Below are positions 307 to 52,341 of a stretch of DNA of 64,000 nucleotides, in pieces; within the stretch, counting starts at the first letter, position 1, and every line of letters begins with the position of its first letter. A program made the translations under genes and the position numbers. The notes beneath the pieces were generated by a model. The model was not told where the DNA came from. It made no database searches and saw only the letters and a program-made list of their open reading frames with translations. The stretch comes from a virus (taxonomy: Duplodnaviria > Heunggongvirae > Uroviricota > Caudoviricetes), in IMG/VR virus record IMGVR_UViG_3300045988_005753; one strand, written 5' to 3'.

Positions 307-316
307 TCGACGCAGC

Positions 317-332
317 GGGGCTAAATAGCCCC
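317..332 (+). other. GC hairpin (GGGGCT/AGCCCC stem, 4-nt loop) with no T-run
   Basis: inverted repeat read directly; shares its stem sequence with the terminator hairpin at 344-364. Confidence 0.4.
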
Positions 333-343
333 AGATACCTTTA

Positions 344-370
344 CAGCCCCTATTTAAAGGGGCTTTTTTA
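344..370 (+). terminator. rho-independent terminator
   Basis: stem CAGCCCC/GGGGCT followed by TTTTT, directly after the 58-306 ORF. Confidence 0.6.
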
Positions 371-1900
371 CGTCTATGTGATAGCCTCTCTCAAAGACTT
401 ATACAATCCCTTTCCCTTTCCTTTCTAGAATCTTATCAGACCTTAAAAGCAATAACTCTATAGTCTACTCTATAGCCTTTTATCAAATCAACTTAAATAT
501 AAGCCCATAACCCGAAAGGGAAGGGCAACCATTAAAACGCTCTATAAAGCTCTATAACAGCCTTATCAACCTAACTTAAGCAATCATATTAACCCACTCT
601 AAAAAGCCCTTTATAGAGCTTCCCAGAGCCTTAAAAGAATCTTATAAGGTGTAAGCTTTATTATCTCGTTAGCTATCTTGTGAATATCTAAAAAGGGCTT
701 GTTAGTGTCTTAAAAGTATGTTATAGGAGCTTAAAAGTAGCTTAAAAGTTACGTAAATGCTAGCCCCCTTAACATCTTCTTAACAATTTCTTAACAATCC
801 CTACATAGTTATGCTTGTTAGAGACTTGTTAGCCCCTTGTTAAATCTCTGTTAAGACCATGTAAAATCCTTGTAAGAGTCTTTGGCATAGCCTTAAAAGC
901 TTCTGTAAAGCCCTATAAAGAGCTATCCATACAGTTGAGGGGTAGATACTAGGAAGAGGCTTAAAAGGGGCTATACAGAGCTATAGAGAGCTTTTAAGAG
1001 GCATGTTTAAGGAATCACTAAGAGGGAAAGGGAACGATAAGAAAAGAGTAGTGACCATGTTAATAGCTTGTTAAAAAGATTAAACACTTGTTAGAAACTT
1101 GTTAATTATCTTAACAAAATAACTCTTTAAAATTAACTTGTTAGCTCTTGTTAATCATCTGTTAAGATTCTGTAAAGCCCTATCAAATCTTGTTAGAAAA
1201 CTGTTAAGCCCTTGTTAGTTCTGTTAAGAATCTGTTAAGACCTTTGAAGAGTTGTTAAGAAGATGTGAGAACTGTTAAGGGATTGTTAAGGATATTTTAA
1301 AATTTTGCAAAGTACTTGTAAGGGAGCTGTTAAGGGCTACCAAGCAGATATACATCCTAATCAGATATTTTTCAGTTCCTTCAAAGACCCTAAAAAATGA
1401 CTTGATAGCCCTATTTTATAAAAATTTTAAAAATCTGAATAATTACCTAGACAGTCTTTTAAAAAATACAGGTAGAAACAGGCTTATAAGATACCTTGTT
1501 AGTACCGTGTTAGACCTTGTGAGATAAGGTCTGTGAAGATATTCCTGTTAAGTTTGTTAAAACAGTCTATATAGAGGCTTAGTAGTACCTAGTGAACACC
1601 TATAGAGGGTATCATAGCTTACCTAGAGATTAAGAGGTGTATAGGAGCTTCTAAGAGGGTGTAGAGGGATGGTTAAGGTGATTGTATAGGTTGTTAAGAA
1701 GGCTTGTTAGAGGGCTATTTAGAAGGGTTATACAGAGGGCTATTAAGACCACTAGATAGTTACTAAGATACTATATAGTACTATATAACTATATAGAGAG
1801 TAAGATTAAGAAGGTTGTTAAGAAGGATAGATATTTTATTCACATATGATGGTGACCCAGAGGTTGGGACAACCGATAAAATTTTATAAAAAATTAAAAA
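370..1900. repeat. non-coding repeat-rich region; array of TTGTTAAG/CTGTTAAG/CTTGTTAG octamers at about 9-12 bp spacing (densest 1060-1330), plus CTTAAAAG and CTATAAAG motifs
   Basis: no ORF of 60 aa or more on either strand; dozens of direct octamer copies and their reverse complements (CTTAACAA near 778-800) read directly. Confidence 0.75.
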
Positions 1901-1931
1901 GCCCCCAATTAAGGAGGCTCTTAAGATATTT

Positions 1932-9125: not shown

Positions 9126-9716
9126 TTAAGCTTTGGTCTTAAGTAGGTTCTTAAGTTTTTTAAGATTCATACTCTCATCAAACTTAAAACCAAATCCATT
9201 GACATAATCAATGAACTCGGATTTCTTACTAAGTGACAATGCGTAACTCATATCGAAGTTCTTACTTGTTTCTGCGTCTGGACTAGAGTTCACATCAAAT
9301 GAAATTTCTGTAGGTTCTTGCTTACTTTTTCTCATATTATCAACCAACAAACATGTATAGTTTGCTGGATAGAAGTTTACACTGCCATCAACGTAGCTGT
9401 ACTTATTATTATGGATAAGGTTGGAAAATACCTTAAGAAATGTTTCTGAGTCGTGGCAAACAAGTTTGAATTGGCTGCTCTCTCCAAGCGCAACTAATGA
9501 GTACGGACTTTCACTATCAAAGTCATAATTTGGATTCGATGGCGTCACTGTTACACGCATCAAGTTATTAGCGATAGTCTTCTGTTTAAAAGAATTTTGA
9601 ACATAGTGAAGACCTCTCTCACACTGATTGACTAGCTCTTTAAGTAGGTCATTTGCATATGGTGAATTAATTGATACAGAGCCATCACTATTGTAATTAA
9701 AACTTACTGTTAACAT
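9126..9716 (-). CDS. hypothetical protein
   Basis: ORF of 196 aa. Confidence 0.55.
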   Translation of the reverse strand: MLTVSFNYNSDGSVSINSPYANDLLKELVNQCERGLHYVQNSFKQKTIANNLMRVTVTPSNPNYDFDSESPYSLVALGESSQFKLVCHDSETFLKVFSNLIHNNKYSYVDGSVNFYPANYTCLLVDNMRKSKQEPTEISFDVNSSPDAETSKNFDMSYALSLSKKSEFIDYVNGFGFKFDESMNLKKLKNLLKTKA

Positions 9717-9943
9717 TTTTCAGTTCTCCTGCGATTTATAATTTTGCTGCAATAGAGAAACGAAGTAAACTCACTGGAAGAAACCACTAAGTGTTGTTCA
9801 CTAGATTGAGCCATTGCCCTGAAATACATTCCAGTCAAAGCATCATAGTGACTATTCTTTCCAATTGAGGTTATATAGCCATGACTCTTTGCAGTTTGAT
9901 ATAAATCTATAATATCTGCGATTTCTAATTGGGAACTACACAT
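9710..9943 (-). CDS. hypothetical protein
   Basis: ATG with AAGAGGA RBS. Confidence 0.5.
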   Translation of the reverse strand: MCSSQLEIADIIDLYQTAKSHGYITSIGKNSHYDALTGMYFRAMAQSSEQHLVVSSSEFTSFLYCSKIINRRRTEKC

Positions 9944-10086
9944 AGATAATCCTCTTGTCTTCTGTAATTTTGAAAGAACAGGTACAGACCAATTTCAGAG
10001 GATGAATAGTAGATTAACTCTACCCTTTTTGATTCCTTACAGTGATTGGTATTCTTACCTTTCTTCGGTTTATTTGATTTTCTCAT
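9925..10086 (-). CDS. small basic hypothetical protein
   Basis: ATG at 10086 has an AAGGAG RBS; the longer track ORF lacks one. Confidence 0.4.
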   Translation of the reverse strand: MRKSNKPKKGKNTNHCKESKRVELIYYSSSEIGLYLFFQNYRRQEDYLCVVPN

Positions 10087-10183
10087 TAAGTCTCCTTTGT
10101 AGAACAAGGCAGACCTACAGCTTTAAGTAAGATGGTACAGTAATCCATACAACAAGTCAAGAACTATTGCAAGTTAAAAAAGT

Positions 10184-10215
10184 TGTTGACAAAGTACTTG
10201 ACAAGGTGTAGGCTT
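10184..10215 (+). promoter_or_regulatory. conserved tandem TTGACAA element (GTTGACAAnnnACTTGACAAGGTGT) in a divergent intergenic region
   Basis: a near-identical element recurs at 51719-51746 in the second divergent intergenic region. Confidence 0.5.
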
Positions 10216-10335
10216 ATAAATACTTAGAAGATAACTTAAAAGGTTCCTCTAAAAAGGCTATTTAAACAGATATCTTTCTGGATATCTATCTTTTATCTTA
10301 AAAGCCTTTTAAGAGGTCTTATAAGAGGCATACCA

Positions 10336-10707
10336 ATGAAAAACAGAACAAACAAAGGCCAGTTTAAAAAAGGCCAGTCTGGAAACCCATCTGGAAGACC
10401 AAAAGGCTCACGTAACAAAAGCTCTCTCGTAAAAGCTCAACTGACCATTGATAATTCTGCTGAGTTTGCTGCAAAGTTGTTTGAAGCAATTGTTACAAGG
10501 GACGCTGCTAAGCTTGCAGAGTTCGGTTTGACGACTGACGATGTAAACCTGAAGTCGATGATGGAGGCTGGTAAAACTATCATGACTCACTCAGCAGGTG
10601 AGATGAAAGCGATTGCAGCAGACACTAAGAAGACCCCTGATAACGGTGGTCAGTCTCAGACAGATAACAAACCAACGTTCTCTGCTGTTGCAACGCTTAA
10701 AAAATAA
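10336..10707 (+). CDS. hypothetical protein with N-terminal GNPSGRPKG motif (possible DNA-binding, terminase-small-subunit-like)
   Basis: ATG with AGAGG RBS; basic glycine-rich N-terminus. Confidence 0.5.
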   Translation: MKNRTNKGQFKKGQSGNPSGRPKGSRNKSSLVKAQLTIDNSAEFAAKLFEAIVTRDAAKLAEFGLTTDDVNLKSMMEAGKTIMTHSAGEMKAIAADTKKTPDNGGQSQTDNKPTFSAVATLKK

Positions 10708-10789: not shown

Positions 10790-12205
10790 ATGAGCGAATT
10801 ATTTAAACATGCGCACCTTCATGCAGGTCGAACTGAAAATGGTGCTGTAAACCATACTTCATCAATGTCTGCTCTTGTAGACTTTTACAAAGCTGCTGGT
10901 TCAAGCCGTAGCAATGTAGAAATCTTACCAGACCTGTTCTACAAAGCTTTGCGTGAGGATGTTGATGTTGCAGTTCGTATTTTACTGCATATGCGAGATG
11001 TACGAGAAGGTATGGGTGAGCGTAAAGCCTTCAGAACTGTTTTGCTTCAAGCGATTGAAGATAAAGTTTTAGAGCCTACGCAGGTTCTTCGCATTATGGA
11101 TAAGATTGCAGAGCTTGGTCGTTTTGATGACTTCAAAATCTTTGTAGGTACTCGTTTCGAGACAGATGCCTTCAAGCATTTAGAAGCAGCATTACTAGAC
11201 CCTGCAACAGCAGGTTTGGCAGCTAAGTGGTTACCACGAGTCAAACCACGTCATAAGCAGTTTGTAAAACGTTTCTGCAAGTTTGCAAACTTGAGTGAGA
11301 AAGAGTACCGCACACTGCTGTCTGCACTATCTGATACAGTTGAACAAAAAATATCTGCTAATGAGTTTGGTAAGATTGACTACAGTAAGATTCCTTCACT
11401 TGCTGCTGCACGTTACCAAAAGCTCTTTAACCGTAAAGATGGAGAACGCTACAAAGCTTACATTGAGTCCTTATCAAAGGGCGAGACTAAGATTAATGCT
11501 GGTGCTGTTTATCCATATGATGTGATTAAATCTATCAAGTATGGTAATGCAGATGTTGCTAATGAGCAGTGGAAAGCACTACCAAACTGGATGGCAGAAG
11601 GTGAAAACATCCTGTGTATGACTGATGTTTCAAGCTCAATGTCTTGGGTGAATCTTGGTTCAATCACTGCCCTTGATATTGGTGTATCCCTTGCCTTGTA
11701 TGTAGCAGAACGCAATACAGGTTGTTTTAAGAATGAGTTAATGGTTTATTCAACAAACCCTCATTTCATCGAACTGAGTGGTGATTTACGAAACCGTCAT
11801 CGTCAGGTAATGCGTCATGTTGAATATGGTTCAACTAACTTACAAGCAGCTTTTGACCGCATTCTTGAAATAGGTAAGAGAAACAACTTGACTCAGGAAG
11901 ATATGCCAAGTAAGCTTATCATCTTCTCTGATATGGAGTTCAATCAGGTTGACGGTGCAAATGGTCATACAAACTTTGAAGCAATTCAGAGTAAGTACAA
12001 AAAAGCTGGATATGAGATGCCACAATTGGTATTCTGGTACTTAGCAAACCGTAATGGTACTTGCGAAGTGTCTGTTAAGGATAACGGTGTAGCAATGGTA
12101 TCTGGTTTCTCTCCAGCCACTTTAAAAGCTCTGCTTGGTGGTGAGAAGTTTGACCCAATCAGCGTAATGCTCAAAGCAGTAATGATTGACCGCTATATCT
12201 GGTAA
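10790..12205 (+). CDS. vWA-domain protein, candidate Ro60/TROVE-like RNA-binding protein
   Basis: 471 aa; helical N-terminal part then a DxSxS MIDAS-type motif (DVSSSMS) typical of vWA folds; sits directly upstream of the tRNA array that contains Y-RNA-like elements. Confidence 0.55.
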   Translation: MSELFKHAHLHAGRTENGAVNHTSSMSALVDFYKAAGSSRSNVEILPDLFYKALREDVDVAVRILLHMRDVREGMGERKAFRTVLLQAIEDKVLEPTQVLRIMDKIAELGRFDDFKIFVGTRFETDAFKHLEAALLDPATAGLAAKWLPRVKPRHKQFVKRFCKFANLSEKEYRTLLSALSDTVEQKISANEFGKIDYSKIPSLAAARYQKLFNRKDGERYKAYIESLSKGETKINAGAVYPYDVIKSIKYGNADVANEQWKALPNWMAEGENILCMTDVSSSMSWVNLGSITALDIGVSLALYVAERNTGCFKNELMVYSTNPHFIELSGDLRNRHRQVMRHVEYGSTNLQAAFDRILEIGKRNNLTQEDMPSKLIIFSDMEFNQVDGANGHTNFEAIQSKYKKAGYEMPQLVFWYLANRNGTCEVSVKDNGVAMVSGFSPATLKALLGGEKFDPISVMLKAVMIDRYIW

Positions 12206-12223
12206 AAAGTTTTAAAAAGGGTA

Positions 12224-12252
12224 TTGACAATGTGTTTAATACCCTTTAATAT
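12224..12252 (+). promoter_or_regulatory. sigma70-type promoter upstream of the tRNA array
   Basis: TTGACA, 17-bp spacer, TAATAT. Confidence 0.55.
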
Positions 12253-12370
12253 GTTCTACATAGAAACGAAATGAGAGCTTTTCTAAGATACTGAAAAATA
12301 TTTTAAAAAAGTTCTTGACAACCACTAAAAAATAATGTTAAAGTAGTTACATAGAGTTTGAAAAGTTTAT

Positions 12371-12447
12371 CTCTGTTTAGCTCAGCTTGGTAGAGCGTTC
12401 CGTTTGGGGCGGTAAGGCCGGAGGTTCAAGTCCTCCAACAGAGACCA
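12371..12447 (+). tRNA. tRNA-Pro (UGG)
   Basis: cloverleaf folded by eye: acceptor CTCTGTT/AACAGAG, T-arm GGAGG-TTCAAGT-CCTCC, encoded CCA. Confidence 0.75.
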
Positions 12448-12454
12448 AATTAAT

Positions 12455-12532
12455 GTTCCAGTAGACAAAATGGTAAAGTCACCACTCTTTCAAAGTGGAT
12501 ATTTGAGGGTTCAAATCCCTTCTGGAACGCCA
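12455..12532 (+). tRNA. tRNA-Glu (UUC)
   Basis: acceptor GTTCCAG/CTGGAAC, anticodon stem CCACT/AGTGG, loop CTTTCAA, CCA. Confidence 0.75.
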
Positions 12533-12537
12533 GTTTT

Positions 12538-12618
12538 GACAGAAGACCAATTACAGCAAACTTAATCTTATTCATCTGAAGGTAAATCGGACAAAGAAGA
12601 GATTTGGTCTGGTCATTA
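12538..12618 (+). ncRNA. stem-bounded structured element A (ACAGAAGACCAATTACAGCAA ... TTGGTCTGG)
   Basis: 5' AGACCAA pairs with 3' TTGGTCT; compensatory changes relative to elements B and C. Confidence 0.4.
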
Positions 12619-12623
12619 AGAAT

Positions 12624-12700
12624 TGCGGGTATAGAGAAAGGGCGTCTCACATGTCTCATTAGCATGGTATCGGCAGGTTCGACTCCTGCACCCGCCTCCA
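12624..12700 (+). tRNA. tRNA-Met-like (CAU), irregular acceptor with a 1:72 mismatch
   Basis: T-arm GCAGG-TTCGACT-CCTGC, anticodon stem CATGT/GCATG, loop CTCATTA, CCA; 5' boundary uncertain. Confidence 0.5.
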
Positions 12701-12705
12701 AATTT

Positions 12706-12776
12706 ACAGAAGACCGTTTACAGCAACATTTATTAAATTTTTAGCGGAAAAATTGAAAGATACGGTCTGGTAATAC
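12706..12776 (+). ncRNA. stem-bounded structured element B (ACAGAAGACCGTTTACAGCAA ... ACGGTCTGG)
   Basis: 5' AGACCGT pairs with 3' ACGGTCT; internal AATTTTT-AGCGG-AAAAATT hairpin. Confidence 0.4.
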
Positions 12777-12783
12777 TAAACAT

Positions 12784-12860
12784 GGTTAGGAAGCACATAA
12801 GGTATGTGCGGTCGCCTGTTAAGCGAATGGCACAGGGTTCGAATCCCTGACTAACCGCCA
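12784..12860 (+). tRNA. tRNA-Asn (GUU)
   Basis: acceptor GGTTAGG/ACTAACC, D-stem GCAC/GTGC, loop CTGTTAA, T-arm CAGGG-TTCGAAT-CCCTG, CCA. Confidence 0.75.
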
Positions 12861-12929
12861 AATTTAGGAGAGAAGCGATTGCTCACCGATTTGTAAGGTG
12901 CAAGTCCTTAGCCTGAATAGAAATTAAAT

Positions 12930-13017
12930 GTGTCGTTATCCCGTAGATGGTAGCGGTGGGGACTGTAAATCCCTTGTCATTGAGACTCGGTAGGTTCGAC
13001 TCCTACACGGCACACCA
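12930..13017 (+). tRNA. tRNA-Tyr (GUA), long variable arm
   Basis: 88 nt; acceptor GTGTCGT/ACGGCAC, loop CTGTAAA, T-arm GTAGG-TTCGACT-CCTAC, CCA. Confidence 0.7.
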
Positions 13018-13022
13018 ATAAA

Positions 13023-13100
13023 GGTTATGTAGTTTAATCTGGTTAAAATACTCCCCTGTCACGGGAGATGATGAGGGTTCAAATCCCTTCGTAACCGCCA
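13023..13100 (+). tRNA. tRNA-Asp (GUC)
   Basis: acceptor GGTTATG/CGTAACC, anticodon stem CTCCC/GGGAG, loop CTGTCAC, CCA. Confidence 0.75.
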
Positions 13101-13124
13101 ATTTTGAGAGGGCTATTTAGCCCC

Positions 13125-13160
13125 TCCCTTAAAGAGTTCTTACGAGTATTCTTTAAAGGA
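13125..13160 (+). other. conserved hairpin (stem CCTTAAAGA/TCTTTAAAGG, loop containing TTCTTACGAG)
   Basis: same hairpin family recurs at 13974-14005 and 16466-16495, each time in a spacer of the tRNA array. Confidence 0.45.
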
Positions 13161-13161
13161 G

Positions 13162-13240
13162 CAGAAGGCCAAATACAGCAAGAATGTATGAAATTTCAAG
13201 CCAATTTAATTTTGAAAATTTAAAACTTGGTCTGGCTCAA
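13162..13240 (+). ncRNA. stem-bounded structured element D (AGAAGGCCAAATACAGCAAG ... TTGGTCTGG)
   Basis: 5' GGCCAA pairs with 3' TTGGTC (one G-U); same ACAGCAA core as A, B and C. Confidence 0.35.
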
Positions 13241-13247
13241 CAAATTT

Positions 13248-13385
13248 ACAGAAGACCGTTTACAGCAAAACTTAAACAATCTATTTCTCCGGTAAAGAAA
13301 AGGCGAAGGTTCGATTCCTTCACTCGGCAGATGTCGAGTTGGTGTAATGGTAGCACTTAAGATGATAAACAACGGTCTGGTAATT
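13248..13385 (+). ncRNA. candidate Y-RNA / YrlA-like tRNA mimic: closing stem around a circularly permuted tRNA-like module
   Basis: order read directly: 5' stem AGACCGTT, T-arm GAAGG-TTCGATT-CCTTC, acceptor 3' strand ACTCGGC, 4-nt loop, acceptor 5' strand GTCGAGT, D-arm GTGT-AATGGTA-GCAC, 3' stem AACGGTCT. Confidence 0.5.
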
Positions 13386-13529
13386 ATCTTTGTAGATAAG
13401 TTATTAAGCTTACCTGTGAGTATGCGACCACAAAGGGTGAATGGGTAAATTCTAGATTTAAACCCAAAAAGGCACATCGCTACAGACCTTAAGCAAGTCT
13501 GGGTAGCTTATCTACAAAGATAATTTAAT

Positions 13530-13605
13530 GGAAGTGTAGCAGAATGGTGATGCGGCAGACTTTTAATCTGACAGGCGATGGGTTCGAATCCCTCCACTTC
13601 TACCA
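13530..13605 (+). tRNA. tRNA-Lys (UUU)
   Basis: acceptor GGAAGTG/CACTTCT, loop CTTTTAA, T-loop TTCGAAT, CCA. Confidence 0.7.
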
Positions 13606-13609
13606 ATAT

Positions 13610-13686
13610 GGTTCAGTCGCAGATAAGGTAATGCAAGGGTCTCATAAGCCCTATGAATGTGGGTTCGATTCCCATCTGAACCTCCA
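13610..13686 (+). tRNA. tRNA-Met or tRNA-Ile2 (CAU)
   Basis: acceptor GGTTCAG/CTGAACC, anticodon stem AGGGT/GCCCT, loop CTCATAA, CCA. Confidence 0.7.
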
Positions 13687-13687
13687 A

Positions 13688-13763
13688 GCTGGTATAGTTA
13701 AGAAGGTTATAACACTCCCCTGATAAGGGAACATCGGTGGTTCGATTCCACCTACCAGTACCA
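13688..13763 (+). tRNA. tRNA-Ile (GAU)
   Basis: acceptor GCTGGTA/TACCAGT, D-stem GTTA/TAAC, loop CTGATAA, T-arm GGTGG-TTCGATT-CCACC, CCA. Confidence 0.7.
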
Positions 13764-13778
13764 ATTTCAATAAAGTTG

Positions 13779-13807
13779 TTGACATTGAGATGTGACTACT
13801 TTATAGT
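13779..13807 (+). promoter_or_regulatory. internal sigma70-type promoter within the tRNA array
   Basis: TTGACA, 17-bp spacer, TATAGT. Confidence 0.5.
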
Positions 13808-13973
13808 AACCTTAGTTTTCGTTGCGTAGCGTCTATTTTGCAAATTTAAAATAAATGCAAACGACAATGTTTTTCTGGCAGTAGCTTGATAGGCTAAACA
13901 CCAGTGAGGTCTTCCAATCCCTCATCAAAGAATTTGGCGTACTCGCCCACGGTATGATTAATAAGGTGGGCAT

Positions 13974-14005
13974 CTTTAAGGACTTTCTAAGAGAGTCTTT
14001 AAAGA
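13974..14005 (+). other. conserved hairpin (stem CTTTAAGGA/TCTTTAAAG, loop CTTTCTAAGAGAG)
   Basis: member of the TTCT(T)A(C/A)GAGAG-loop hairpin family. Confidence 0.45.
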
Positions 14006-14009
14006 TAAT

Positions 14010-14086
14010 GCACCCTTAGTTCAATTGGATAGAGCAACGGTCTTCTAAATCGTTAGTTACAGGTTCGAATCCTGTAGGGTGTACCA
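14010..14086 (+). tRNA. tRNA-Arg (UCU)
   Basis: acceptor GCACCCT/AGGGTGT, anticodon stem ACGGT/ATCGT, loop CTTCTAA, T-arm ACAGG-TTCGAAT-CCTGT, CCA. Confidence 0.75.
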
Positions 14087-14228
14087 AATAGTTAGCAGAT
14101 TACTTAGACTGCCTTAGCGGGTCTTCCTGTAGGGAGGTGGTCTGTATCTCATGTTTTCCAGAACATGTAAATAATCTGAGAAGAAGCTTGACAGTGTTGA
14201 GATAACAGGGTAAGCTTCGAATTATAAT

Positions 14229-14311
14229 ATGGGACGATGTTAAGACTCTAAGGCATGAGCAACGGCCTCCAAAACCGTTTCAAAGGGGTTCAACTCCTCC
14301 GTCCCATGCCA
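14229..14311 (+). tRNA. tRNA-like gene, probably tRNA-Trp (CCA), with an enlarged irregular D-region
   Basis: perfect 7-bp acceptor ATGGGAC/GTCCCAT, T-loop TTCAACT, CCA end, anticodon loop CTCCAAA; 83 nt. Confidence 0.5.
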
Positions 14312-14324
14312 AAGTCTTATTAGG

Positions 14325-14414
14325 GGTAGGTAGCGGCTAATGGCAGCCAAACAGTCTTGAAAACTGTTGCCACTGTAGAGATACGGTGAGGGTTCGACTC
14401 CTTTACTTACCGCC
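14325..14414 (+). tRNA. tRNA-Ser (UGA), long variable arm; CCA apparently not encoded
   Basis: acceptor GGTAGGT/ACTTACC, anticodon stem ACAGT/ACTGT, loop CTTGAAA, T-loop TTCGACT. Confidence 0.65.
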
Positions 14415-14565
14415 TAATAAGATTTACTCCGTCCATGCTTGTTCGCATTGTCGGTTTATCCCTCGTGTATTGTCGTACACTGTCAAAGCACCTAGTAGGT
14501 GTCATGGAGAGAGATAATATCAAGCTCTCCAAAGGTTCTAGTCACCGGATTAAACAAGACTATGC

Positions 14566-14588
14566 AAAGACCTAAATAGGTCTTTTTA
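14566..14588 (+). terminator. rho-independent terminator-like hairpin inside the tRNA array
   Basis: AAGACC-TAAATA-GGTCTT followed by TTTTT. Confidence 0.45.
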
Positions 14589-14591
14589 GAG

Positions 14592-14650
14592 GGCTTCTAA
14601 GGTTATTACAGCTTGTTGTGGAACCTTGTTGCTTAGGTTCTTAGAAGTTC
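14592..14650 (+). other. long hairpin (CTTCTAAGG ... CTTAGAAG)
   Basis: 8-bp inverted repeat around a 40-nt loop; related to the CTAAGG hairpin family. Confidence 0.35.
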
Positions 14651-14666
14651 TCTAAAAAGATTTAAT

Positions 14667-14744
14667 GGGAGATTGACGGTAATTGGTAAACCTACCATCC
14701 TTAGAAGTTGGTGTTTGAGGGTTCGAATCCCTTGTCTCCTACCA
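14667..14744 (+). tRNA. tRNA with anticodon UAG (Leu-type) but a short variable arm
   Basis: acceptor GGGAGAT/GTCTCCT, D-loop AATTGGTAA (Leu-like), anticodon stem CCATC/GTTGG, loop CTTAGAA, A73, CCA; 78 nt. Confidence 0.6.
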
Positions 14745-14751
14745 AATTAAT

Positions 14752-14827
14752 GCAGGTGTAGCAAAATGGTTATGCGGCTGACTCTTAATCAGTAAGACGA
14801 TGGGTTCAATTCCCTCCACCTGTACCA
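14752..14827 (+). tRNA. tRNA-Lys (CUU)
   Basis: acceptor GCAGGTG/CACCTGT, anticodon stem GCTGA/TCAGT, loop CTCTTAA, CCA; close paralog of the Lys(UUU) gene. Confidence 0.7.
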
Positions 14828-14833
14828 AACAAT

Positions 14834-14909
14834 GGGGTCATAGTTTATATGGTTAAAATTCGAGTTTTGCAAACTTGGGAACTGAGTTCAATTCTCAGTG
14901 ACTCCACCA
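14834..14909 (+). tRNA. tRNA-Ala (UGC)
   Basis: acceptor GGGGTCA/TGACTCC, anticodon stem CGAGT/ACTTG, loop TTTGCAA, T-arm CTGAG-TTCAATT-CTCAG, CCA. Confidence 0.75.
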
Positions 14910-14915
14910 ATTAGT

Positions 14916-14990
14916 GCATCCATAGTTTAAACGGGAAAATTACAGTCTTCCAAACTGAGGTTGAGGGTTCGATTCCCTCTGGATGCTCCA
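14916..14990 (+). tRNA. tRNA-Gly (UCC)
   Basis: acceptor GCATCCA/TGGATGC, loop CTTCCAA, T-arm GAGGG-TTCGATT-CCCTC, CCA. Confidence 0.7.
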
Positions 14991-14997
14991 AATTAAT

Positions 14998-15073
14998 GCT
15001 CCTATCGTATAATTGGTTATTACGGTTGCCTTGTAAGCAACTTATCAGGGTTCGAGTCCTTGTGGGAGCACCA
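14998..15073 (+). tRNA. tRNA-Thr (UGU)
   Basis: acceptor GCTCCTA/TGGGAGC, anticodon stem GTTGC/GCAAC, loop CTTGTAA, CCA. Confidence 0.75.
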
Positions 15074-15074
15074 A

Positions 15075-15165
15075 TTCAGAGGTCAAGTGAAAGACCGCTT
15101 TGAGTCAACTGAAGACCGTAACAAATTCCACGGAGTTGAGTTAGCGGCACAACTCCAGACCTCTT
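15075..15165 (+). ncRNA. structured spacer element E (long-range stem CAGAGGTC/GACCTCT, internal hairpin GGAGTTG...CAACTCC, GAAGACCGTAACAA motif)
   Basis: inverted repeats read directly; shares the GAAGACCGT core with elements A-D. Confidence 0.35.
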
Positions 15166-15169
15166 TCAT

Positions 15170-15244
15170 ACTCGCTTAGTTTATATGGTAAAACATCACC
15201 CTTACAAGATGAAGAAAAAGGTTCAAGTCCTTTAGTGAGTACCA
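15170..15244 (+). tRNA. tRNA-Val (UAC)
   Basis: acceptor ACTCGCT/AGTGAGT, D-stem GTTT/AAAC, anticodon stem TCACC/GATGA, loop CTTACAA, CCA. Confidence 0.7.
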
Positions 15245-15245
15245 T

Positions 15246-15323
15246 GTTCCAGTATCCCAATTGGCAGAGGATGCAAGCTCAAACCTTGTATTAGTGACGG
15301 TTCGAATCCGTCTTGGAACACCA
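15246..15323 (+). tRNA. tRNA with anticodon CAA (Leu-type) but a short variable arm
   Basis: acceptor GTTCCAG/TTGGAAC, D-loop AATTGGCAGAG (Leu-like), anticodon stem GCAAG/CTTGT, loop CTCAAAC, A73, CCA. Confidence 0.6.
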
Positions 15324-15328
15324 ATTTT

Positions 15329-15404
15329 GCAGGATTAGTTCAAATGGAAAGAGCAACAGTCTACGAAGCTGTTAATAGGGGTTCGAATCCCTTATCCTGC
15401 GCCA
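15329..15404 (+). tRNA. tRNA-Arg (ACG)
   Basis: acceptor GCAGGAT/ATCCTGC, D-stem GTTC/GAGC, anticodon stem ACAGT/GCTGT, loop CTACGAA, CCA. Confidence 0.75.
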
Positions 15405-15421
15405 GATAAAAAGGTGACACT

Positions 15422-15664
15422 ATGCAAACATTAACAGTAGTTGAACATGAAAACTGTGAGAGTATTGAGTTTGTCAGGGTCATTGGTGTTGAACACCACA
15501 TTTTCTTAAAAGTGGGATACTTATGTGACCCCGCTAGAGTAGAAAGATTTATACGTGATTGTTTTGGTGGTAGACATCTGAAGAGTGTTATTTTTGAGAC
15601 AGTTTTACCAGAAGGTTTAGAAACGAATAATAACATTTACCTCCTTACGAGGATTAGACAATGA
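15422..15664 (+). CDS. hypothetical protein embedded in the tRNA array
   Basis: ATG with AGGTGA RBS; ATGA coupling to the next ORF. Confidence 0.45.
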   Translation: MQTLTVVEHENCESIEFVRVIGVEHHIFLKVGYLCDPARVERFIRDCFGGRHLKSVIFETVLPEGLETNNNIYLLTRIRQ

Positions 15665-16218
15665 GATACTTAAAGTATGCTTCATGGATTTTCTTAGCTT
15701 TGTTAGAGCCATTTGCAGCAATCTTAGCAGTTATCTTAGCACCTTTCGTAGTTCCATTCTACAGTGAGAAGAAAGGACATCTACCTTTCGGGTTCAGATG
15801 GATGGAAACTTATGACAACCCAATTGATGGTGATGAAGGTCACGTTAAAAGATGGGCTAATATTAGATGGATTGGTAAACTAGGTGTCTACATGCAAAGA
15901 GTCGGATGGCTCTGGAGAAACAAAGCTTATAACTTCTCTTACCATGTATTAGGGAGAGATGTAAAAGATGTTACTAAGTGGAAAGGTAATATCAACGTAA
16001 GTTCTGACCCTGAAGATAATCAGACAGGTTATCTCCTAATGTGGAACAGTAATGCTTGGGGATTATTCGCTTTTATCCCATCAATTAAAATCTTTGGTAA
16101 ACAATTTTACTGGAGAATTTATATTGGATGGAAACTAAAAAGTGTTGTCCCAGAAGAAAGAGCATTCTCAAGGGAAAGAGTTATGTTGGCATTCTTTATT
16201 CATCCACTGAGAAAGTAA
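15661..16218 (+). CDS. membrane protein embedded in the tRNA array
   Basis: N-terminal hydrophobic segment WIFLALLEPFAAILAVILAPFVVPF; 185 aa. Confidence 0.5.
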   Translation: MRYLKYASWIFLALLEPFAAILAVILAPFVVPFYSEKKGHLPFGFRWMETYDNPIDGDEGHVKRWANIRWIGKLGVYMQRVGWLWRNKAYNFSYHVLGRDVKDVTKWKGNINVSSDPEDNQTGYLLMWNSNAWGLFAFIPSIKIFGKQFYWRIYIGWKLKSVVPEERAFSRERVMLAFFIHPLRK

Positions 16219-16226
16219 AGATTTAA

Positions 16227-16302
16227 AGGGGATTAGTTTACAAGGTTAAAACCTCGGTCTTTGAAATCGAAGAAGTTGGTTCAATTCCAACATCCCCCGC
16301 CA
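16227..16302 (+). tRNA. tRNA-Gln (UUG)
   Basis: acceptor AGGGGAT/ATCCCCC, anticodon stem TCGGT/ATCGA, loop CTTTGAA, T-arm GTTGG-TTCAATT-CCAAC, CCA. Confidence 0.7.
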
Positions 16303-16304
16303 AT

Positions 16305-16383
16305 GCTCCATTACTCCAATTGGCAGAGAGGCCAGACTTAAAATCTGTGTTATGTATCGGTTCGAATCCGATATGGAGTACCA
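16305..16383 (+). tRNA. tRNA with anticodon UAA (Leu-type) but a short variable arm
   Basis: acceptor GCTCCAT/ATGGAGT, D-loop AATTGGCAGAG (Leu-like), loop CTTAAAA, T-arm ATCGG-TTCGAAT-CCGAT, A73, CCA. Confidence 0.6.
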
Positions 16384-16388
16384 AATTT

Positions 16389-16464
16389 AGCGGTATAGCA
16401 TAACTGGCAATGCAGCAGTCTCTGAAGCTGTCTTATTAAGGTTCAAATCCTTATGCCGCTGCCA
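16389..16464 (+). tRNA. tRNA-Gln (CUG)
   Basis: acceptor AGCGGTA/TGCCGCT, anticodon stem GCAGT/GCTGT, loop CTCTGAA, CCA. Confidence 0.65.
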
Positions 16465-16465
16465 C

Positions 16466-16495
16466 TTCTAAGGATTCTTACGAGAGTCCTTAAAT
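16466..16495 (+). other. conserved hairpin (stem TAAGGA/TCCTTA, loop TTCTTACGAGAG)
   Basis: member of the TTCTTACGAG-loop hairpin family. Confidence 0.45.
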
Positions 16496-16571
16496 GTGGC
16501 CTTATCATAAATGGTAATGACCCATGCTGTGAACATGGTCTATACGGGTTCAAATCCCGTAGGTCACCCCA
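16496..16571 (+). tRNA. tRNA-His (GUG)
   Basis: acceptor GTGGCCT/AGGTCAC, D-stem TCAT/ATGA, anticodon stem CCATG/CATGG, loop CTGTGAA, CCA. Confidence 0.75.
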
Positions 16572-16576
16572 ATTTA

Positions 16577-16653
16577 TAGTCCAAGTAGCTTATATGGTTA
16601 AAGCGCGTGTCTGAAAAACATGAGAAGAGGGTTCAAATCCCACTGGACTACCA
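16577..16653 (+). tRNA. tRNA-Phe (GAA)
   Basis: acceptor TAGTCCA/TGGACTA, anticodon stem CGTGT/ACATG, loop CTGAAAA, T-loop TTCAAAT, CCA; 5' end uncertain by 1 nt. Confidence 0.65.
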
Positions 16654-16669
16654 ATTTCAAAGGTGCTTA

Positions 16670-17404
16670 ATGAAAGAGATGACAGAACAAGGTAAGGAGA
16701 TTTTTAATCTCTTAAAAACTGGTAAAGGGTTTTCTAACCCCCTTATTACTGGTGCAGCAGTTCTCGGTGGAACCGTAGCTGCCTCCACATCACTTGTAAG
16801 CTCTATTAGTTCTGTATCAGACCCTACAGTAAAAGATAAGCTTGTTGCTGCTGGACTTACAACAGTTCTGCTTAACAGCTTTACCACGAGTCTGACAAGC
16901 ACTACATCAACTACCAAAACACTGACAGATTACGGTCAAAAGTCCATTGATGAGTTTTCATCACGTATGCAGGTAGCAAAAGGTTATTCTAATGTTATGG
17001 GTGCAGCAGGTGAACAAGTTGGCTGTACACCATTTAGTGGTATTATGGGTGTTGCTACAGAGTATGGTCAAAAAGCTATTGATACGATTAACAGTGCACT
17101 AGACGGTGTTAATGATGTATTAAGTGATTTACAAGACGCTATTGACAAAGGTCTTGATACTATTTCTGATTTAGCTAACCAAGCTGTTAGTAAGATTAAT
17201 GAAGGTATCTCGAAGATTACAGCTTATGCAGATGAAGTTGTGCAGATGATTGAAGAAGAAGCTGCCCTTATTGCAGAGTACCTTAAAACGAATATCAATG
17301 GGTTCTTAGCAGGTATCTTACCAGACTGGTTTGATGATGCTTGTAAAACTGGTGTAATTGACACTATTGCAACACCAGAAATGAAGAACGCATTACAGAA
17401 ATAA
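16670..17404 (+). CDS. hypothetical Ser/Thr-rich protein
   Basis: track ORF starts inside tRNA-Phe; first ATG downstream of the tRNA (16670) has an AAAGGTG RBS. Confidence 0.5.
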   Translation: MKEMTEQGKEIFNLLKTGKGFSNPLITGAAVLGGTVAASTSLVSSISSVSDPTVKDKLVAAGLTTVLLNSFTTSLTSTTSTTKTLTDYGQKSIDEFSSRMQVAKGYSNVMGAAGEQVGCTPFSGIMGVATEYGQKAIDTINSALDGVNDVLSDLQDAIDKGLDTISDLANQAVSKINEGISKITAYADEVVQMIEEEAALIAEYLKTNINGFLAGILPDWFDDACKTGVIDTIATPEMKNALQK

Positions 17405-17405
17405 T

Positions 17406-17498
17406 GGAAGATTAACCCTAAAAGGTAAGGGAGCAGTTTGCTAAACTGCCAGTAGCTGAGAAATCGGTGTACCAGTTCAAGTCTGGTATCTTCCTCCA
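17406..17498 (+). tRNA. tRNA-Ser (GCU), long variable arm
   Basis: 93 nt; acceptor GGAAGAT/ATCTTCC, anticodon stem GCAGT/ACTGC, loop TTGCTAA, T-arm ACCAG-TTCAAGT-CTGGT, CCA. Confidence 0.7.
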
Positions 17499-17502
17499 AT
17501 TT

Positions 17503-17578
17503 GAATCCGTGACAGAAATGGCTATGTGCCTGTCTGCAAAACAGGTTTATAAGGGTTCGAGTCCCTTCGGATTCTCCA
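17503..17578 (+). tRNA. tRNA-Cys (GCA)
   Basis: acceptor GAATCCG/CGGATTC, anticodon stem CCTGT/ACAGG, loop CTGCAAA, T-arm AAGGG-TTCGAGT-CCCTT, CCA. Confidence 0.75.
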
Positions 17579-43399: not shown

Positions 43400-43604
43400 C
43401 TTTCTTCTTCCGTTTGCGTGAAGTATCAATCAACGAATCTATGTTTGTAGCCCTAACCTTTTCACGTTCATCATTAAGATAATCATCAAGAGCCTTTTCA
43501 ATCTGTGAATCATCTTGACAGATAACTGTAAAGACTGTAAAGCCGTCTGTATCGTCAATTATCTTACCATAACCGCTTCTGGGATGTAACTTTTTAAGAG
43601 CCAT
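43392..43604 (-). CDS. hypothetical protein
   Basis: 70-aa ORF. Confidence 0.45.
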   Translation of the reverse strand: MALKKLHPRSGYGKIIDDTDGFTVFTVICQDDSQIEKALDDYLNDEREKVRATNIDSLIDTSRKRKKKDE

Positions 43605-51661: not shown

Positions 51662-51718
51662 TTTTACTCCCTCTAAAATCATTAACCCCATACATTACTG
51701 CAAAAAATTATAAAAAGC

Positions 51719-51746
51719 AAGTTGACAATACACTTGACAAGGTGTT
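51719..51746 (+). promoter_or_regulatory. second copy of the conserved tandem TTGACAA element
   Basis: GTTGACAATACACTTGACAAGGTGT, near-identical to 10184-10215. Confidence 0.5.
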
Positions 51747-51918
51747 AATCTTTGCGAAGTGGGTTTTTACTTAAAAGGTTACTTAACAGTTTAACTATAC
51801 AGATACTTTAGAACTCTTAAAAGATTATTTAATAGCTTTTAAAAAGCTTTAAAGTATAACGTATAGAATACGTTAAGATAAAAGATTAAAACTTAATAGT
51901 TACTTAAAAGAGGCTTAC

Positions 51919-52341
51919 ATGCAGAAAATGTTTGTTCACCCAGACATAGCTGACTTTGTTAGAGCTTTGCAGAAGTTGGAAGAACTTGACATTGCTGCTC
52001 AACGGGAATATGCTCACCATCACAGGGGAATGGTAGATATACAACATGAAATAGAGTTGTCTGAAAACTATGAAGATGACTTAAAATGCTCTGTATTTGA
52101 GCATATGAAAGATGTTGCTACAGCGAGACGTAAAGCTAAAGACACAGTTGCTTTACTAGATTCTCTTAAAAAGAGGTTGCAAAGTGGTACAGACCTGTGT
52201 AATCTAGCGTCACTGATTAACGATGTTGAAACTTCTTGGGATAGGCACTATTATCCACGTTCTGAAAAGACACTTGACTTTTCTTCATCAGAAAACTTAA
52301 AATGTTCTAGAAAGAAACTTAACCAACTGAGAGAGAAATAA
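51919..52341 (+). CDS. hypothetical protein
   Basis: AGAGG RBS; 140 aa. Confidence 0.5.
   Translation: MQKMFVHPDIADFVRALQKLEELDIAAQREYAHHHRGMVDIQHEIELSENYEDDLKCSVFEHMKDVATARRKAKDTVALLDSLKKRLQSGTDLCNLASLINDVETSWDRHYYPRSEKTLDFSSSENLKCSRKKLNQLREK

What the first reader, a model, noticed from the sequence alone, without database searches (positions are those of the whole stretch)
10184..10215. Conserved tandem TTGACAA element shared by both divergent intergenic regions
GTTGACAAAGTACTTGACAAGGTGT (10184-10215) and GTTGACAATACACTTGACAAGGTGT (51719-51746) are nearly identical and each lies where a minus-strand block meets a plus-strand block. No good -10 hexamer sits at a conserved distance, so this looks like a shared operator or regulator site, or an unusual promoter class. 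Both regions are also rich in the CTTAAAAG octamer that recurs in the 370-1900 repeat region.
Basis: seen in the sequence. Interest (0 to 1): 0.45.

Follow-up and report, generated by a model that had tools for sequence, protein, structure and literature searches.

The report
Phage promoters with doubled −35 box
Two matching control regions of this Felix O1-type phage each look like an ordinary host-type promoter whose TTGACA "−35" box is repeated exactly 12 bases downstream; the repeat is real and strictly conserved, but it embellishes promoters that are already partly annotated and is not a new kind of element.

Summary
The window is a Felixounavirus (Felix O1-like) genome. The two 25-mers exist at 10185-10209 and 51721-51745, match at 22 of 25 bases, and far exceed chance. 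Each sits at a divergent gene junction (Felix O1 genes 40|41 and 96|97).

The upstream TTGACA is followed at 17 bp (site 1) or 18 bp (site 2) by a TAnnnT hexamer, TAGGCT or TAATCT. Its T, A and final T never change in relatives, and the same layout recurs in the matching promoters of other Ounavirinae genera. So these are most likely host sigma-70 promoters for the gene-41 and gene-97 operons. Felix O1 "P41" and GenBank promoter features already cover them in part.

What was not noted before:
- The second TTGACA lies inside the spacer, has no −10 of its own, and is invariant in 21 natural variants while the 6 bases between the boxes vary freely.
- The same double-box layout occurs in Kolesnikvirus and in marine T4-like phages.
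- The similarity between the two sites extends about 170 nt, into leaders that fold as long hairpins built from CTTAAAAG-type words.

The role of the second box is unresolved. I favour an auxiliary contact for RNA polymerase over an operator.

The parts
10176..10181 (+). A-tract just upstream of the first hexamer (AAAAAA, then GTTG). It could act as an UP-like element.
   Evidence: Sequence. The same aaaGTTG/aaaGTTC context precedes other perfect TTGACA hexamers in the window, at 12315, 13779 and 45703(-).
10186..10191 (+). Site 1, hexamer 1: TTGACA, proposed −35 box of the rightward promoter P41.
   Evidence: Invariant in 12 distinct natural variants. With N17 and TAGGCT it ranks 14 of 127,930 positions in the weight-matrix scan. 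Felix O1 P41 uses this hexamer.
10192..10197 (+). Six bases between the hexamers (AAGTAC), free to vary.
   Evidence: All 6 columns vary among relatives: AAGTAC, AAGCAC, AAGGAC, AATGAC, AGCCTC, AGGGGA, TTCCTC.
10198..10203 (+). Site 1, hexamer 2: TTGACA inside the spacer, about −23 to −18 relative to the predicted start. It has no −10 of its own.
   Evidence: Invariant in all variants. Its best own register (N15 AATACT) ranks only 327th. GACAA lies 4 bp upstream of the −10, the position of the beta' zipper 'Z-element' (PMC3173786).
10209..10214 (+). Proposed −10 of P41: TAGGCT (TAnnnT).
   Evidence: Relatives carry TAGGCT, TAGCCT, TAAGTT or TAGTGT. Positions 1, 2 and 6 never change and positions 3-5 do.
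10221..10335 (+). Untranslated leader of the gene-41-like operon. It holds a long hairpin at 10235-10325 (inner hairpin 10268-10287) built from CTTAAAAG-type words and their complements. The predicted start near 10221 is inferred.
   Evidence: 89-94% identical in relatives whose flanking coding sequence is 78-86% identical. MFE z-score −2.7. Consensus of 33 pairs with 1 covarying pair.
10132..10160 (-). Leftward promoter P40: TTGACT (10160-10155), N17, TACCAT (10137-10132). It lies upstream of the small ORF 9925-10086(-).
   Evidence: Called by the scanner. Both hexamers are invariant in the alignment. A Wc4-1 counterpart reads TTGACA-N17-TACCAT.
10336..10707 (+). First gene downstream of site 1, the Felix O1 gene 41 homologue (DUF5681).
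   Evidence: Pfam PF18932, E = 7.8e-14. Annotation of NC_005282.
51692..51720 (-). Candidate leftward DNA polymerase promoter P96: TTGCTT (51720-51715), N17, TAATGT (51697-51692). It lies back to back with hexamer 1, 1 bp apart.
   Evidence: Weak score of 5.9. However AAGCAA is invariant, and the −10 varies as TAATGT, TAGGGT, TAAGGT or TAGTGT (TAnnGT) in relatives. This part is inferred.
51722..51727 (+). Site 2, hexamer 1: TTGACA, proposed −35 box of the rightward promoter P97.
   Evidence: Invariant in 9 distinct variants. With N18 and TGT-TAATCT it ranks 30 of 127,930 positions. MZ726791 annotates a promoter starting here.
51734..51739 (+). Site 2, hexamer 2: TTGACA in the spacer, with no usable −10.
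   Evidence: Invariant. Its own best register ranks 5,224th.
51746..51751 (+). Proposed −10 of P97: TAATCT, preceded by TGT (an extended −10 TGn).
   Evidence: Relatives carry TAATCT or TAGTCT preceded by TGT or TGG.
51758..51918 (+). Untranslated leader of the gene-97-like operon, with a long interrupted hairpin at 51782-51877. The predicted start near 51758 is inferred.
   Evidence: 26 pairs in 4 helices, 97.4% of cells paired, 2 covarying pairs. No shuffle of 500 reaches the covariation score, and slid controls give 11-59% pairing. MFE z-score −2.0.
51919..52341 (+). First gene downstream of site 2, the Felix O1 gene 97 homologue. Function unknown.
   Evidence: PHROG 4039, no Pfam hit. Homologues in Wc4-1 and FIfi106.

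Best explanation
The two sites are paralogous promoter-plus-leader modules of a Felix O1-like phage. They drive the two long rightward transcription units, starting at the gene 41 and gene 97 homologues. Host RNA polymerase with sigma-70 uses the upstream TTGACA as the −35 box. It uses a non-consensus TAnnnT hexamer 17 bp (site 1, TAGGCT) or 18 bp (site 2, TGT-TAATCT) downstream as the −10 box, and starts near 10221 and 51758. The second TTGACA sits in the spacer at about −24/−23 to −18. It cannot act as a −35 box because nothing like a −10 follows it. I infer that RNA polymerase itself reads it as an auxiliary contact. It occupies the spot where the beta' zipper touches the 'Z-element' of T7 A1/A2, or it may offer a second docking site for sigma region 4. 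Either way it would strengthen or stabilise polymerase binding at promoters whose −10 matches only 3 of 6. The transcripts begin with conserved leaders that fold into long AU-rich hairpins made of CTTAAAAG-type words, which accounts for the octamer enrichment at these two sites. Shown: sequence, statistics, conservation pattern, paralogy, leader pairing.
For: The window is a Felixounavirus, with 250+ records at 80-98% identity. The pattern occurs twice against 0.01 expected.

Conservation. In 21 distinct natural variants retrieved by flanking anchors, 0 of 24 hexamer columns vary while 10 of 12 inter-hexamer columns do (p = 2.6e-7). The −10 candidates keep T, A and final T while the middle bases vary.

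Promoter scoring. Hexamer-1 registers rank 14th and 30th of 127,930 positions. Hexamer-2 registers rank 327th and 5,224th.

Other genera. Matching promoters are TTGACA-N17-TAnnnT: Wc4-1 P97 is TTGACA-N8-TTTACA-TGC-TAGGCT, Kolesnikvirus P97 is TTGACA-N17-TACATT, and Wc4-1 P41 is TTGACA-N18-TACCCT.

More double-box promoters, all with the −10 exactly 17 bp after hexamer 1. Felix O1 has a third copy at 11269 (TTGACA-N7-TTGACA-TTGG-TAACTT). Kolesnikvirus has TTGACA-TTCTAC-TTGACA-GGGGC-TAAAGT in FIfi106, phiEa21-4 and Ep030. Marine T4-like phages carry it next to g55. When those were retrieved without requiring hexamer 2, 17 of 21 contigs had TTGACA and the rest had TTAACA, TCGACA or TTTACA, with hypervariable neighbours.

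Prior predictions and precedent. Promoters were predicted here by others. The Z-element is a spacer 5-mer (AACCT/AACAT) 4 bp upstream of the −10 that helps promoters with a weak −10 (PMC3173786). At site 1 GACAA occupies that slot.

Module and leaders. The two regions align over about 170 nt with score 93, against 41.6 ± 6.4 for shuffles. Leader hairpins show covariation, and the leaders are conserved as well as or better than coding DNA.
Against: No transcription start data exist for any Ounavirinae phage in the searchable literature, so promoter use is inferred. Both −10 candidates match TATAAT at only 3 of 6, and a simple consensus scanner does not call them. The −10 sits at 17 bp in site 1 but 18 bp in site 2, so relative to hexamer 2 it is off by one. 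The Z-element analogy is therefore exact only for site 1. The Z-element has no defined consensus, and it would not explain why the TTG part is also invariant in Felixounavirus. Exact identity to the −35 consensus would also suit a protein that competes with sigma. Published RT-PCR places genes 41, 42 and 96-98 in a 25-minute class and gene 22 in the 5-minute class, so the double-box promoters do not share one timing class. Other perfect-−35 promoters in the window show no common spacer motif.
Confidence: 0.6

Rival explanations
1. The hexamer pair is an operator. A phage-encoded or host DNA-binding protein binds both TTGACA boxes, which lie 12 bp apart on nearly the same face of the helix. It competes with sigma region 4 and so switches the gene-41 and gene-97 operons (and gene 22 in Felix O1) off or on together during infection.
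For: The spacing is fixed and both boxes are invariant at two or three promoters of one genome. The pair overlaps the −35 box and spacer, the classic place for a repressor. TTGNCAA-N5-TTGNCAA is formally also a 19-bp dyad. The phage encodes an HTH_3 regulator (43100-43429, minus strand; Pfam E = 3e-9, plus a sub-threshold Sigma70_r4 hit). The Felix O1 authors state that temporal regulation is unexplained.
Against: The same layout is conserved in Kolesnikvirus and in marine T4-like phages, which are unlikely to share a regulator. The HTH protein has no homologue in FIfi106 or Wc4-1. The dyad-related 7th positions vary (TTGACAT, TTGACAG) while the asymmetric central A is invariant, so the conserved unit is the hexamer and not a symmetric half-site. 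The gap between boxes is 5, 6, 7 or 9 bp in different promoters, while the −10 always stays 17-18 bp from hexamer 1.
Confidence: 0.22
2. These are two overlapping functional sigma-70 promoters 12 bp apart (P1 and P2), each using one of the hexamers as its −35 box and giving two transcript starts.
For: Both hexamers are perfect −35 consensus. The MZ726791 annotators chose hexamer 2 at site 1, with N15 and AATACT. TTGACAAGGTG also occurs as the −35 context of a single-hexamer promoter at 48955(-) with TACCAT at N17.
Against: At 15-19 bp after hexamer 2 there is no hexamer with A at position 2 and T at position 6 at site 2, at Felix O1 11269, in Kolesnikvirus or in the T4-like groups. At site 1 the candidate changes from AATACT to AACACT and its spacing shifts with a 1-bp indel in relatives. 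Ranks are 327 and 5,224.
Confidence: 0.07
3. The second hexamer has no function of its own. It is a remnant of a 12-bp duplication of the −35 region that was copied along with the whole promoter-leader module, and it looks conserved only because the region is conserved.
For: The two sites are paralogous over about 170 nt. Hexamer 1 carries the typical upstream context (aaaGTTG) and hexamer 2 the typical downstream context (AGGTG) of single promoters. This is what a duplication would produce.
Against: The columns next to the hexamers vary freely while the hexamers never do (0 of 24 against 10 of 12). An independent lineage of marine T4-like phages shows the same contrast. Non-homologous promoters in Kolesnikvirus and at Felix O1 11269 have the same architecture.
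Confidence: 0.06
4. The junctions are not primarily promoters. They are replication or packaging signals, for example transcription-primed origins as in T7, in which the repeated boxes and CTTAAAAG words bind an initiator.
For: The replication genes are T7-like and pol abuts site 2. The words recur in a 1.6-kb non-coding, iteron-like region. GC skew turns at both junctions.
Against: The skew turns coincide with switches in gene strand and need no origin. The big repeat region contains 34 TAACA words at an 11-bp period and not one TGACA, so its repeats are a different motif. The words in the leaders are accounted for as arms of covarying hairpins.
Confidence: 0.05

Closest known systems
Predicted Felix O1 promoter P41 (Whichard et al. 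2010, PMC3185647) and the 'regulatory/promoter' features of phage vB_EcoM_ASO1A (MZ726791)
   Same: Same loci. P41 uses hexamer 1 of site 1. ASO1A annotates a promoter at hexamer 2 of site 1 and at hexamer 1 of site 2.
   Different: Those predictions chose −10 boxes that are not conserved: TATAGG at N15, AATACT at N15, GTTAAT at N16. The Felix O1 paper states that no promoter-like sequence was found in the 96-97 region. None of them noted the doubled hexamer, its conservation, or the paralogy of the two regions.
[quoted passage not shown] 2011, PMC3173786)
   Same: These are strong phage promoters for host polymerase with a functional spacer element 4 bp upstream of the −10 (AACCT, AACAT) that matters most when the −10 is weak. 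At site 1 GACAA lies in that slot, and ACA is the part of hexamer 2 that never varies in any lineage.
   Different: The Z-element is a 5-mer with no defined consensus. Here a full TTGACA is conserved, and at site 2 and in one T4-like group it sits one base further from the −10. Dependence on the beta' zipper is untested.
Lambda CII / P22 C1 activator sites (TTGC-N6-TTGC straddling the −35 region); from my own knowledge, motif also mentioned in PMC4837284
   Same: Short direct repeats beginning with TTG, on one face of the helix, overlapping the −35 region of a phage promoter.
   Different: The period is 12 rather than 10 bp. The first repeat is itself a perfect −35 box instead of flanking a poor one. 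The phage is virulent, and no CII-like protein was seen among the ORFs scanned.
Lambda PR' late promoter, which has a second −35-like TTGACT used by sigma region 4 in the Q-engaged paused complex (own knowledge)
   Same: A phage promoter with a second −35-like hexamer that sigma can contact after the first.
   Different: In PR' the second hexamer lies downstream of the −10, next to a −10-like pause element. Here it lies upstream of the −10 and no pause-type −10-like element follows. No Q-like antiterminator is known in these phages.

Membership tests
Sigma-70 (housekeeping) promoter | −35 hexamer close to TTGACA | tested here: met
   Perfect TTGACA at 10186 and 51722, invariant in relatives.
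Sigma-70 (housekeeping) promoter | −10 hexamer close to TATAAT, with A at position 2 and T at position 6, 16-18 bp downstream | tested here: inconclusive
   TAGGCT at N17 and TAATCT at N18 match only 3 of 6 and fail the simple scanner. However T, A and final T are invariant across relatives and genera, and the combined scores rank 14th and 30th of 127,930.
Sigma-70 (housekeeping) promoter | Location upstream of, and co-oriented with, the first gene of a transcription unit | tested here: met
   115 nt and about 160 nt upstream of the first plus-strand genes at both divergent junctions.
Sigma-70 (housekeeping) promoter | Transcription start, or open complex formed by E-sigma-70 | not testable with these tools
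   No start-site data found. Only end-point RT-PCR timing is available.
Tandem overlapping promoters (two productive registers) | Each −35 box has its own −10 at 16-18 bp | tested here: not met
   The hexamer-2 registers rank 327th and 5,224th. No conserved TAnnnT follows hexamer 2 at any of the sites examined.
Operator of a dimeric helix-turn-helix repressor | Dyad symmetry, with conservation of the symmetry-related positions | tested here: not met
   The 19-mer is formally a dyad. But the 7th positions vary, and the central A is the same in both arms rather than complementary.
Operator of a dimeric helix-turn-helix repressor | A cognate regulator that co-occurs with the site | tested here: inconclusive
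   An HTH_3 protein is encoded at 43100-43429(-). It has no homologue in FIfi106 or Wc4-1, although FIfi106 has the same double box.
Beta' zipper Z-element promoter (−10/Z/−35) | Spacer 5-mer resembling AACCT/AACAT placed 4 bp upstream of the −10 | tested here: inconclusive
   Site 1 has GACAA + GGTG + TAGGCT, in the right slot with 3 of 5 matches to AACAT. Site 2 is shifted by one base.
Beta' zipper Z-element promoter (−10/Z/−35) | The effect depends on beta' zipper residues (Y47/R48) | not testable with these tools
   This needs in vitro transcription with mutant polymerase.
Lambda CII-type activated promoter | TTGC-N6-TTGC (10-bp period) flanking a poor −35 box | tested here: not met
   The period is 12 bp and the repeat is TTGACA. 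The first repeat is a perfect −35 box.
T4 middle (MotA-dependent) promoter | MotA box (a/t)(a/t)(a/t)TGCTTtA centred at −30, 12 ± 1 bp from TAnnnT | tested here: not met
   No TGCTT-type box is present. The element at that position is the variable gap between the hexamers. The MotA consensus is from my own knowledge.

The most novel reading that the evidence does not exclude
A second TTGACA-like box (invariant core ACA) centred near −21 may be a general, undescribed core-promoter element of phage promoters that host RNA polymerase reads. It is conserved independently in Felixounavirus, in Kolesnikvirus and in marine T4-like phages, where it forms an antisense promoter abutting the late-sigma gene g55. 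RNA polymerase would read it through the beta' zipper or a second sigma region 4 contact, making unusually stable or 'sticky' complexes. These could capture polymerase early in infection, or act as head-on roadblocks.
Probability: 0.22. Interest if true: 0.6.

Novelty: new variant of a known kind. Interest (0 to 1): 0.35.

Why it matters
Felix O1 is a classic Salmonella typing and biocontrol phage, and its transcription programme is still unexplained. It has no phage RNA polymerase and no known sigma or modifier, and its genome paper says temporal control is unknown. This work pins down the two promoter-leader modules that open its two long rightward units. It shows that they are paralogous, share an invariant extra −35-like box, and carry structured leaders. 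That gives concrete mutational targets for reporter and in vitro transcription work. If the second box proves to be read by RNA polymerase itself, it would add a natural, conserved example of a spacer element to the sigma-70 promoter model. It would also give a compact part for building very strong or very stable promoters. If not, it marks a shared operator and hence the missing regulator.

Tried and rejected
1. Hexamer 2 as a second −35 box. No conserved −10 follows it.

2. Reverse complements of the heptamers (TTGTCA) as −35 boxes for the leftward genes. At site 1, TTGTCA-N18-AATAGT exists, but its −10 and TG are not conserved. At site 2 nothing fits.

3. The perfect leftward TATAAT at 51712-51707. 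It has no −35 box and is not conserved.

4. TATAAATA at 10215-10222 as a T4-type late promoter. It is not conserved, and no gp55-like sigma is reported for Felix O1.

5. Host regulator boxes recalled from memory: PhoB, OmpR, PhoP, CpxR, ArcA, CreB, PmrA, FNR, CRP, IHF, Fis and sigma-54. None fits a TTGACA direct repeat with a 12-bp period. This was not tested with matrices.

6. The same motif as the repeats of 307-1931. Rejected: that region has 34 TAACA and no TGACA, at an 11-bp period.

7. Known RNA families in the leaders. Rfam finds only the 24 tRNAs.

8. Literature searches for start-site or RNA-seq data on Felix O1-like phages, and for the CTTAAAAG motif, gave nothing useful.

9. Sense-strand bias of CTTAAAAG-type words. 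Outside the big repeat region the count is only 9 to 3, which is not convincing.

10. CTGACA-N6-TTGACA at 7147(-). There the downstream box is the productive −35. The upstream 5-of-6 match lies in coding DNA and is compatible with chance.

Full report
**What the window is.** BLAST of both regions against GenBank phages gives more than 250 Felix O1-like myoviruses (Felixounavirus) at 80-98% identity. Site 1 corresponds to the Felix O1 gene 40|41 junction and site 2 to the 96|97 junction, between DNA polymerase and gene 97.

**The observation.**
- The 25-mers are at 10185-10209 and 51721-51745 and match at 22 of 25 bases.
- TTGACAA-N5-TTGACAA occurs twice against 0.01 expected.
- Both copies lie where a minus-strand block meets a plus-strand block.
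- CTTAAAAG is enriched, with 24 copies against about 5 expected, and is clustered at both junctions and in 442-998.

**Conservation.**
- I fetched the matching junctions from about 30 IMG/VR contigs, including relatives whose neighbouring proteins are only 82-92% identical, and from Felix O1.
- Retrieval by flanking anchors that do not include the hexamers gave 12 distinct variants of site 1 and 9 of site 2.
- Both TTGACA hexamers are invariant in all 21. The six bases between them vary at 10 of 12 columns (p = 2.6e-7).
- The seventh base (TTGACAA) is not invariant, and the central A is. So the selected unit is the hexamer, which equals the sigma-70 −35 consensus, and not the dyad-symmetric heptamer.

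**A −10 does exist.**
- At site 1, TAGGCT lies 17 bp after hexamer 1. Relatives have TAGCCT, TAAGTT or TAGTGT.
- At site 2, TAATCT lies 18 bp after hexamer 1 and is preceded by TGT. Relatives have TAGTCT preceded by TGG.
- The first T, the A and the last T never change.
- These hexamers match the consensus at only 3 of 6, so a simple scanner misses them.
- In a weight-matrix scan of both strands, using approximate published frequencies, the hexamer-1 registers rank 14th and 30th of 127,930 positions. The hexamer-2 registers rank 327th and 5,224th.
- The window holds about a dozen other promoters of the same style, with a perfect TTGACA, often preceded by aaaGTTG, and a TAnnnT box 16-18 bp downstream.

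**Other genera of the subfamily.**
- The matching gene-97 promoter is TTGACA-N8-TTTACA-TGC-TAGGCT in Pectobacterium phage Wc4-1.
- It is a plain TTGACA-N17-TACATT in Kolesnikvirus.
- The Wc4-1 gene-41 promoter is TTGACA-N18-(TGA)TACCCT.
- This supports hexamer 1 plus TAnnnT as the ancestral promoter.

**Prior knowledge.**
- The Felix O1 genome paper lists P41 as TTGACA(N15)TATAGG at hexamer 1 and states that nothing comparable was seen in the 96-97 region. It also says temporal regulation is unknown.
- GenBank record MZ726791 annotates promoters at hexamer 2 of site 1 and at hexamer 1 of site 2.
- The −10 boxes chosen in those predictions are not conserved.
- Nobody appears to have noted the doubled box or the paralogy. 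I found no start-site or RNA-seq data.

**The second hexamer.**
- It lies in the spacer at about −23 to −18 at site 1 and −24 to −19 at site 2. No −10-like hexamer follows it at any site.
- The same architecture recurs with the −10 always 17 bp after hexamer 1.
  - Felix O1 has a third copy upstream of gene 22, outside this window: TTGACA-ATACCCC-TTGACA-TTGG-TAACTT.
  - Kolesnikvirus has TTGACA-TTCTAC-TTGACA-GGGGC-TAAAGT at the edge of its large non-coding region, in FIfi106, phiEa21-4 and Ep030.
- A pattern scan of IMG/VR also turned up marine T4-like myoviruses carrying TTGACA-N5/6-TTGACA-N5/6-TATACT or TAAAGT next to g55.
  - I retrieved one of those groups again without requiring hexamer 2. 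Of 21 contigs, 17 had TTGACA and the others had TTAACA, TCGACA or TTTACA, while the neighbouring spacer bases were hypervariable.
  - Across all lineages the ACA half never changes, although ACA is the least conserved half of real −35 boxes (own knowledge).
- The phage's HTH_3 regulator (43100-43429, minus strand) has no homologue in FIfi106 or Wc4-1.
- Together these points favour a reader common to all hosts, namely RNA polymerase, over a phage-specific repressor.
- A precedent exists. The beta' zipper 'Z-element' of T7 A1/A2 (AACCT/AACAT) lies 4 bp upstream of the −10 and contributes most when the −10 is weak (PMC3173786).
  - At site 1 GACAA sits exactly there. At site 2 it is one base off.
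  - In Felix O1-like phages the three double-box promoters have the weakest −10 boxes (3 of 6).
- This assignment is an inference, and an operator role remains possible.

**The sites are modules, not just 25-mers.**
- The two regions align over about 170 nt, with score 93 against 41.6 ± 6.4 for shuffles and a maximum of 65. The shared blocks are TAyTGCAA, an A-tract, the double box, ACTTAAAAGGTT and ACAGATAyCTTT.
- The untranslated leaders are as conserved as, or more conserved than, the flanking genes. The P41 leader is 89-94% identical against 78-86% for coding sequence.
- The leaders fold into long AU-rich hairpins whose arms are CTTAAAAG-type words and their complements.
  - 10235-10325: 33 pairs, one covarying pair.
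  - 51782-51877: 26 pairs, two covarying pairs, 97.4% paired, no shuffle of 500 reaching the covariation score, and slid controls at 11-59%.
- This explains the octamer enrichment at the junctions. The hairpins could be RNase III or translational-control sites, which is a guess.
- The repeats of the 307-1931 region are a different motif: TGTTA(A/G) at an 11-bp period, with no TGACA.

**Neighbouring promoters.**
- P40 is leftward: TTGACT-N17-TACCAT at 10160-10132.
- A candidate polymerase promoter, TTGCTT-N17-TAATGT at 51720-51692, lies back to back with hexamer 1. Its TAnnGT pattern is kept in relatives.

**Verdict.**
- The finding is real and conserved.
- It is best read as a variant of a known kind: host-type phage promoters with a conserved extra −35-like box in the spacer, embedded in paralogous promoter-leader modules.
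- I put about 0.6 on this reading as a whole and about 0.8 on the narrower claim that hexamer 1 plus TAnnnT is a promoter. The role of the second box is open.
- Interest is moderate to low.

Noticed in passing
window 307-1931: A 1.6-kb stretch with no ORFs lies between convergent gene blocks. It is packed with short words. CTTAAAAG-type words sit in the left part. TGTTA(A/G) words dominate 1040-1340 at a strict 11-bp period: 34 TAACA in all, 5.8 times the window-wide density, and no TGACA. A region of the same kind, with TCTTAACA and CTTAGAAG words, exists in Kolesnikvirus FIfi106 at 70006-71493. It looks like an iteron array for an origin, partition or packaging site, or for a host response regulator. 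One GenBank record guesses 'StbAB binding' for a repeat elsewhere (window ~9183-9193), not in this region. Function unknown.
   Followed up: partly
window 10235-10325 and 51782-51877: Both leaders fold into long interrupted AU-rich hairpins with compensatory changes in relatives. The base of the first one touches the gene-41 ribosome-binding site (AAGAGG, 10321-10326). They may be RNase III or translational-control structures. No Rfam family matches.
   Followed up: partly
window 51661-51691: The DNA polymerase start is probably ATG 51661, preceded by GAGGGAG. The upstream in-frame ATGs at 51682 (the one annotated in Felix O1 and ASO1A) and 51691 fall in a stretch that is not conserved and lacks the ATG in relatives.
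   Followed up: partly
Felix O1 NC_005282 11269-11310 (L083), about 740 bp left of the window start: A third double-box promoter, TTGACA-ATACCCC-TTGACA-TTGG-TAACTT, lies upstream of gene 22. It sits inside the loop of a CCCC...GGGG hairpin. The Kolesnikvirus copy also sits in a hairpin loop (AGCCC...GGGCT).
   Followed up: partly
window 12215-12245: A promoter, TTGACA-N17-TAATAT, is embedded in the loop and arm of the terminator-like hairpin GGGTATTGACAATGTGTTTAATACCC. Felix O1 lists this as terminator t42. It lies just upstream of the tRNA cluster, so terminator and promoter share the same DNA.
   Followed up: no
IMG/VR loci L101 1764-1808(-), L103 6154-6178(-), L127 4415-4460(+): Marine T4-like myoviruses carry a conserved double-box promoter placed about 20 nt from the start codon of g55 (the late sigma factor). 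In L101 and L103 it points against the neighbouring genes; the L127 neighbourhood is less clear (only g55 was resolved there). It could make an antisense RNA, or act as a head-on block to g55 expression early in infection.
   Followed up: partly
window 10215-10222: TATAAATA, identical to the T4 late-promoter consensus, overlaps the predicted P41 start. It is not conserved in relatives (TAATAAAA, TTCTAAAT), so it is probably chance.
   Followed up: yes
window 10790-12205 and 12371-17575: The second gene after site 1 carries DUF2828/DUF7788 and a weak VWA hit, and some records annotate it as an 'RNA-binding protein'. A cluster of 24 tRNA genes, each group with its own TTGACA promoter, follows it.
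   Followed up: no
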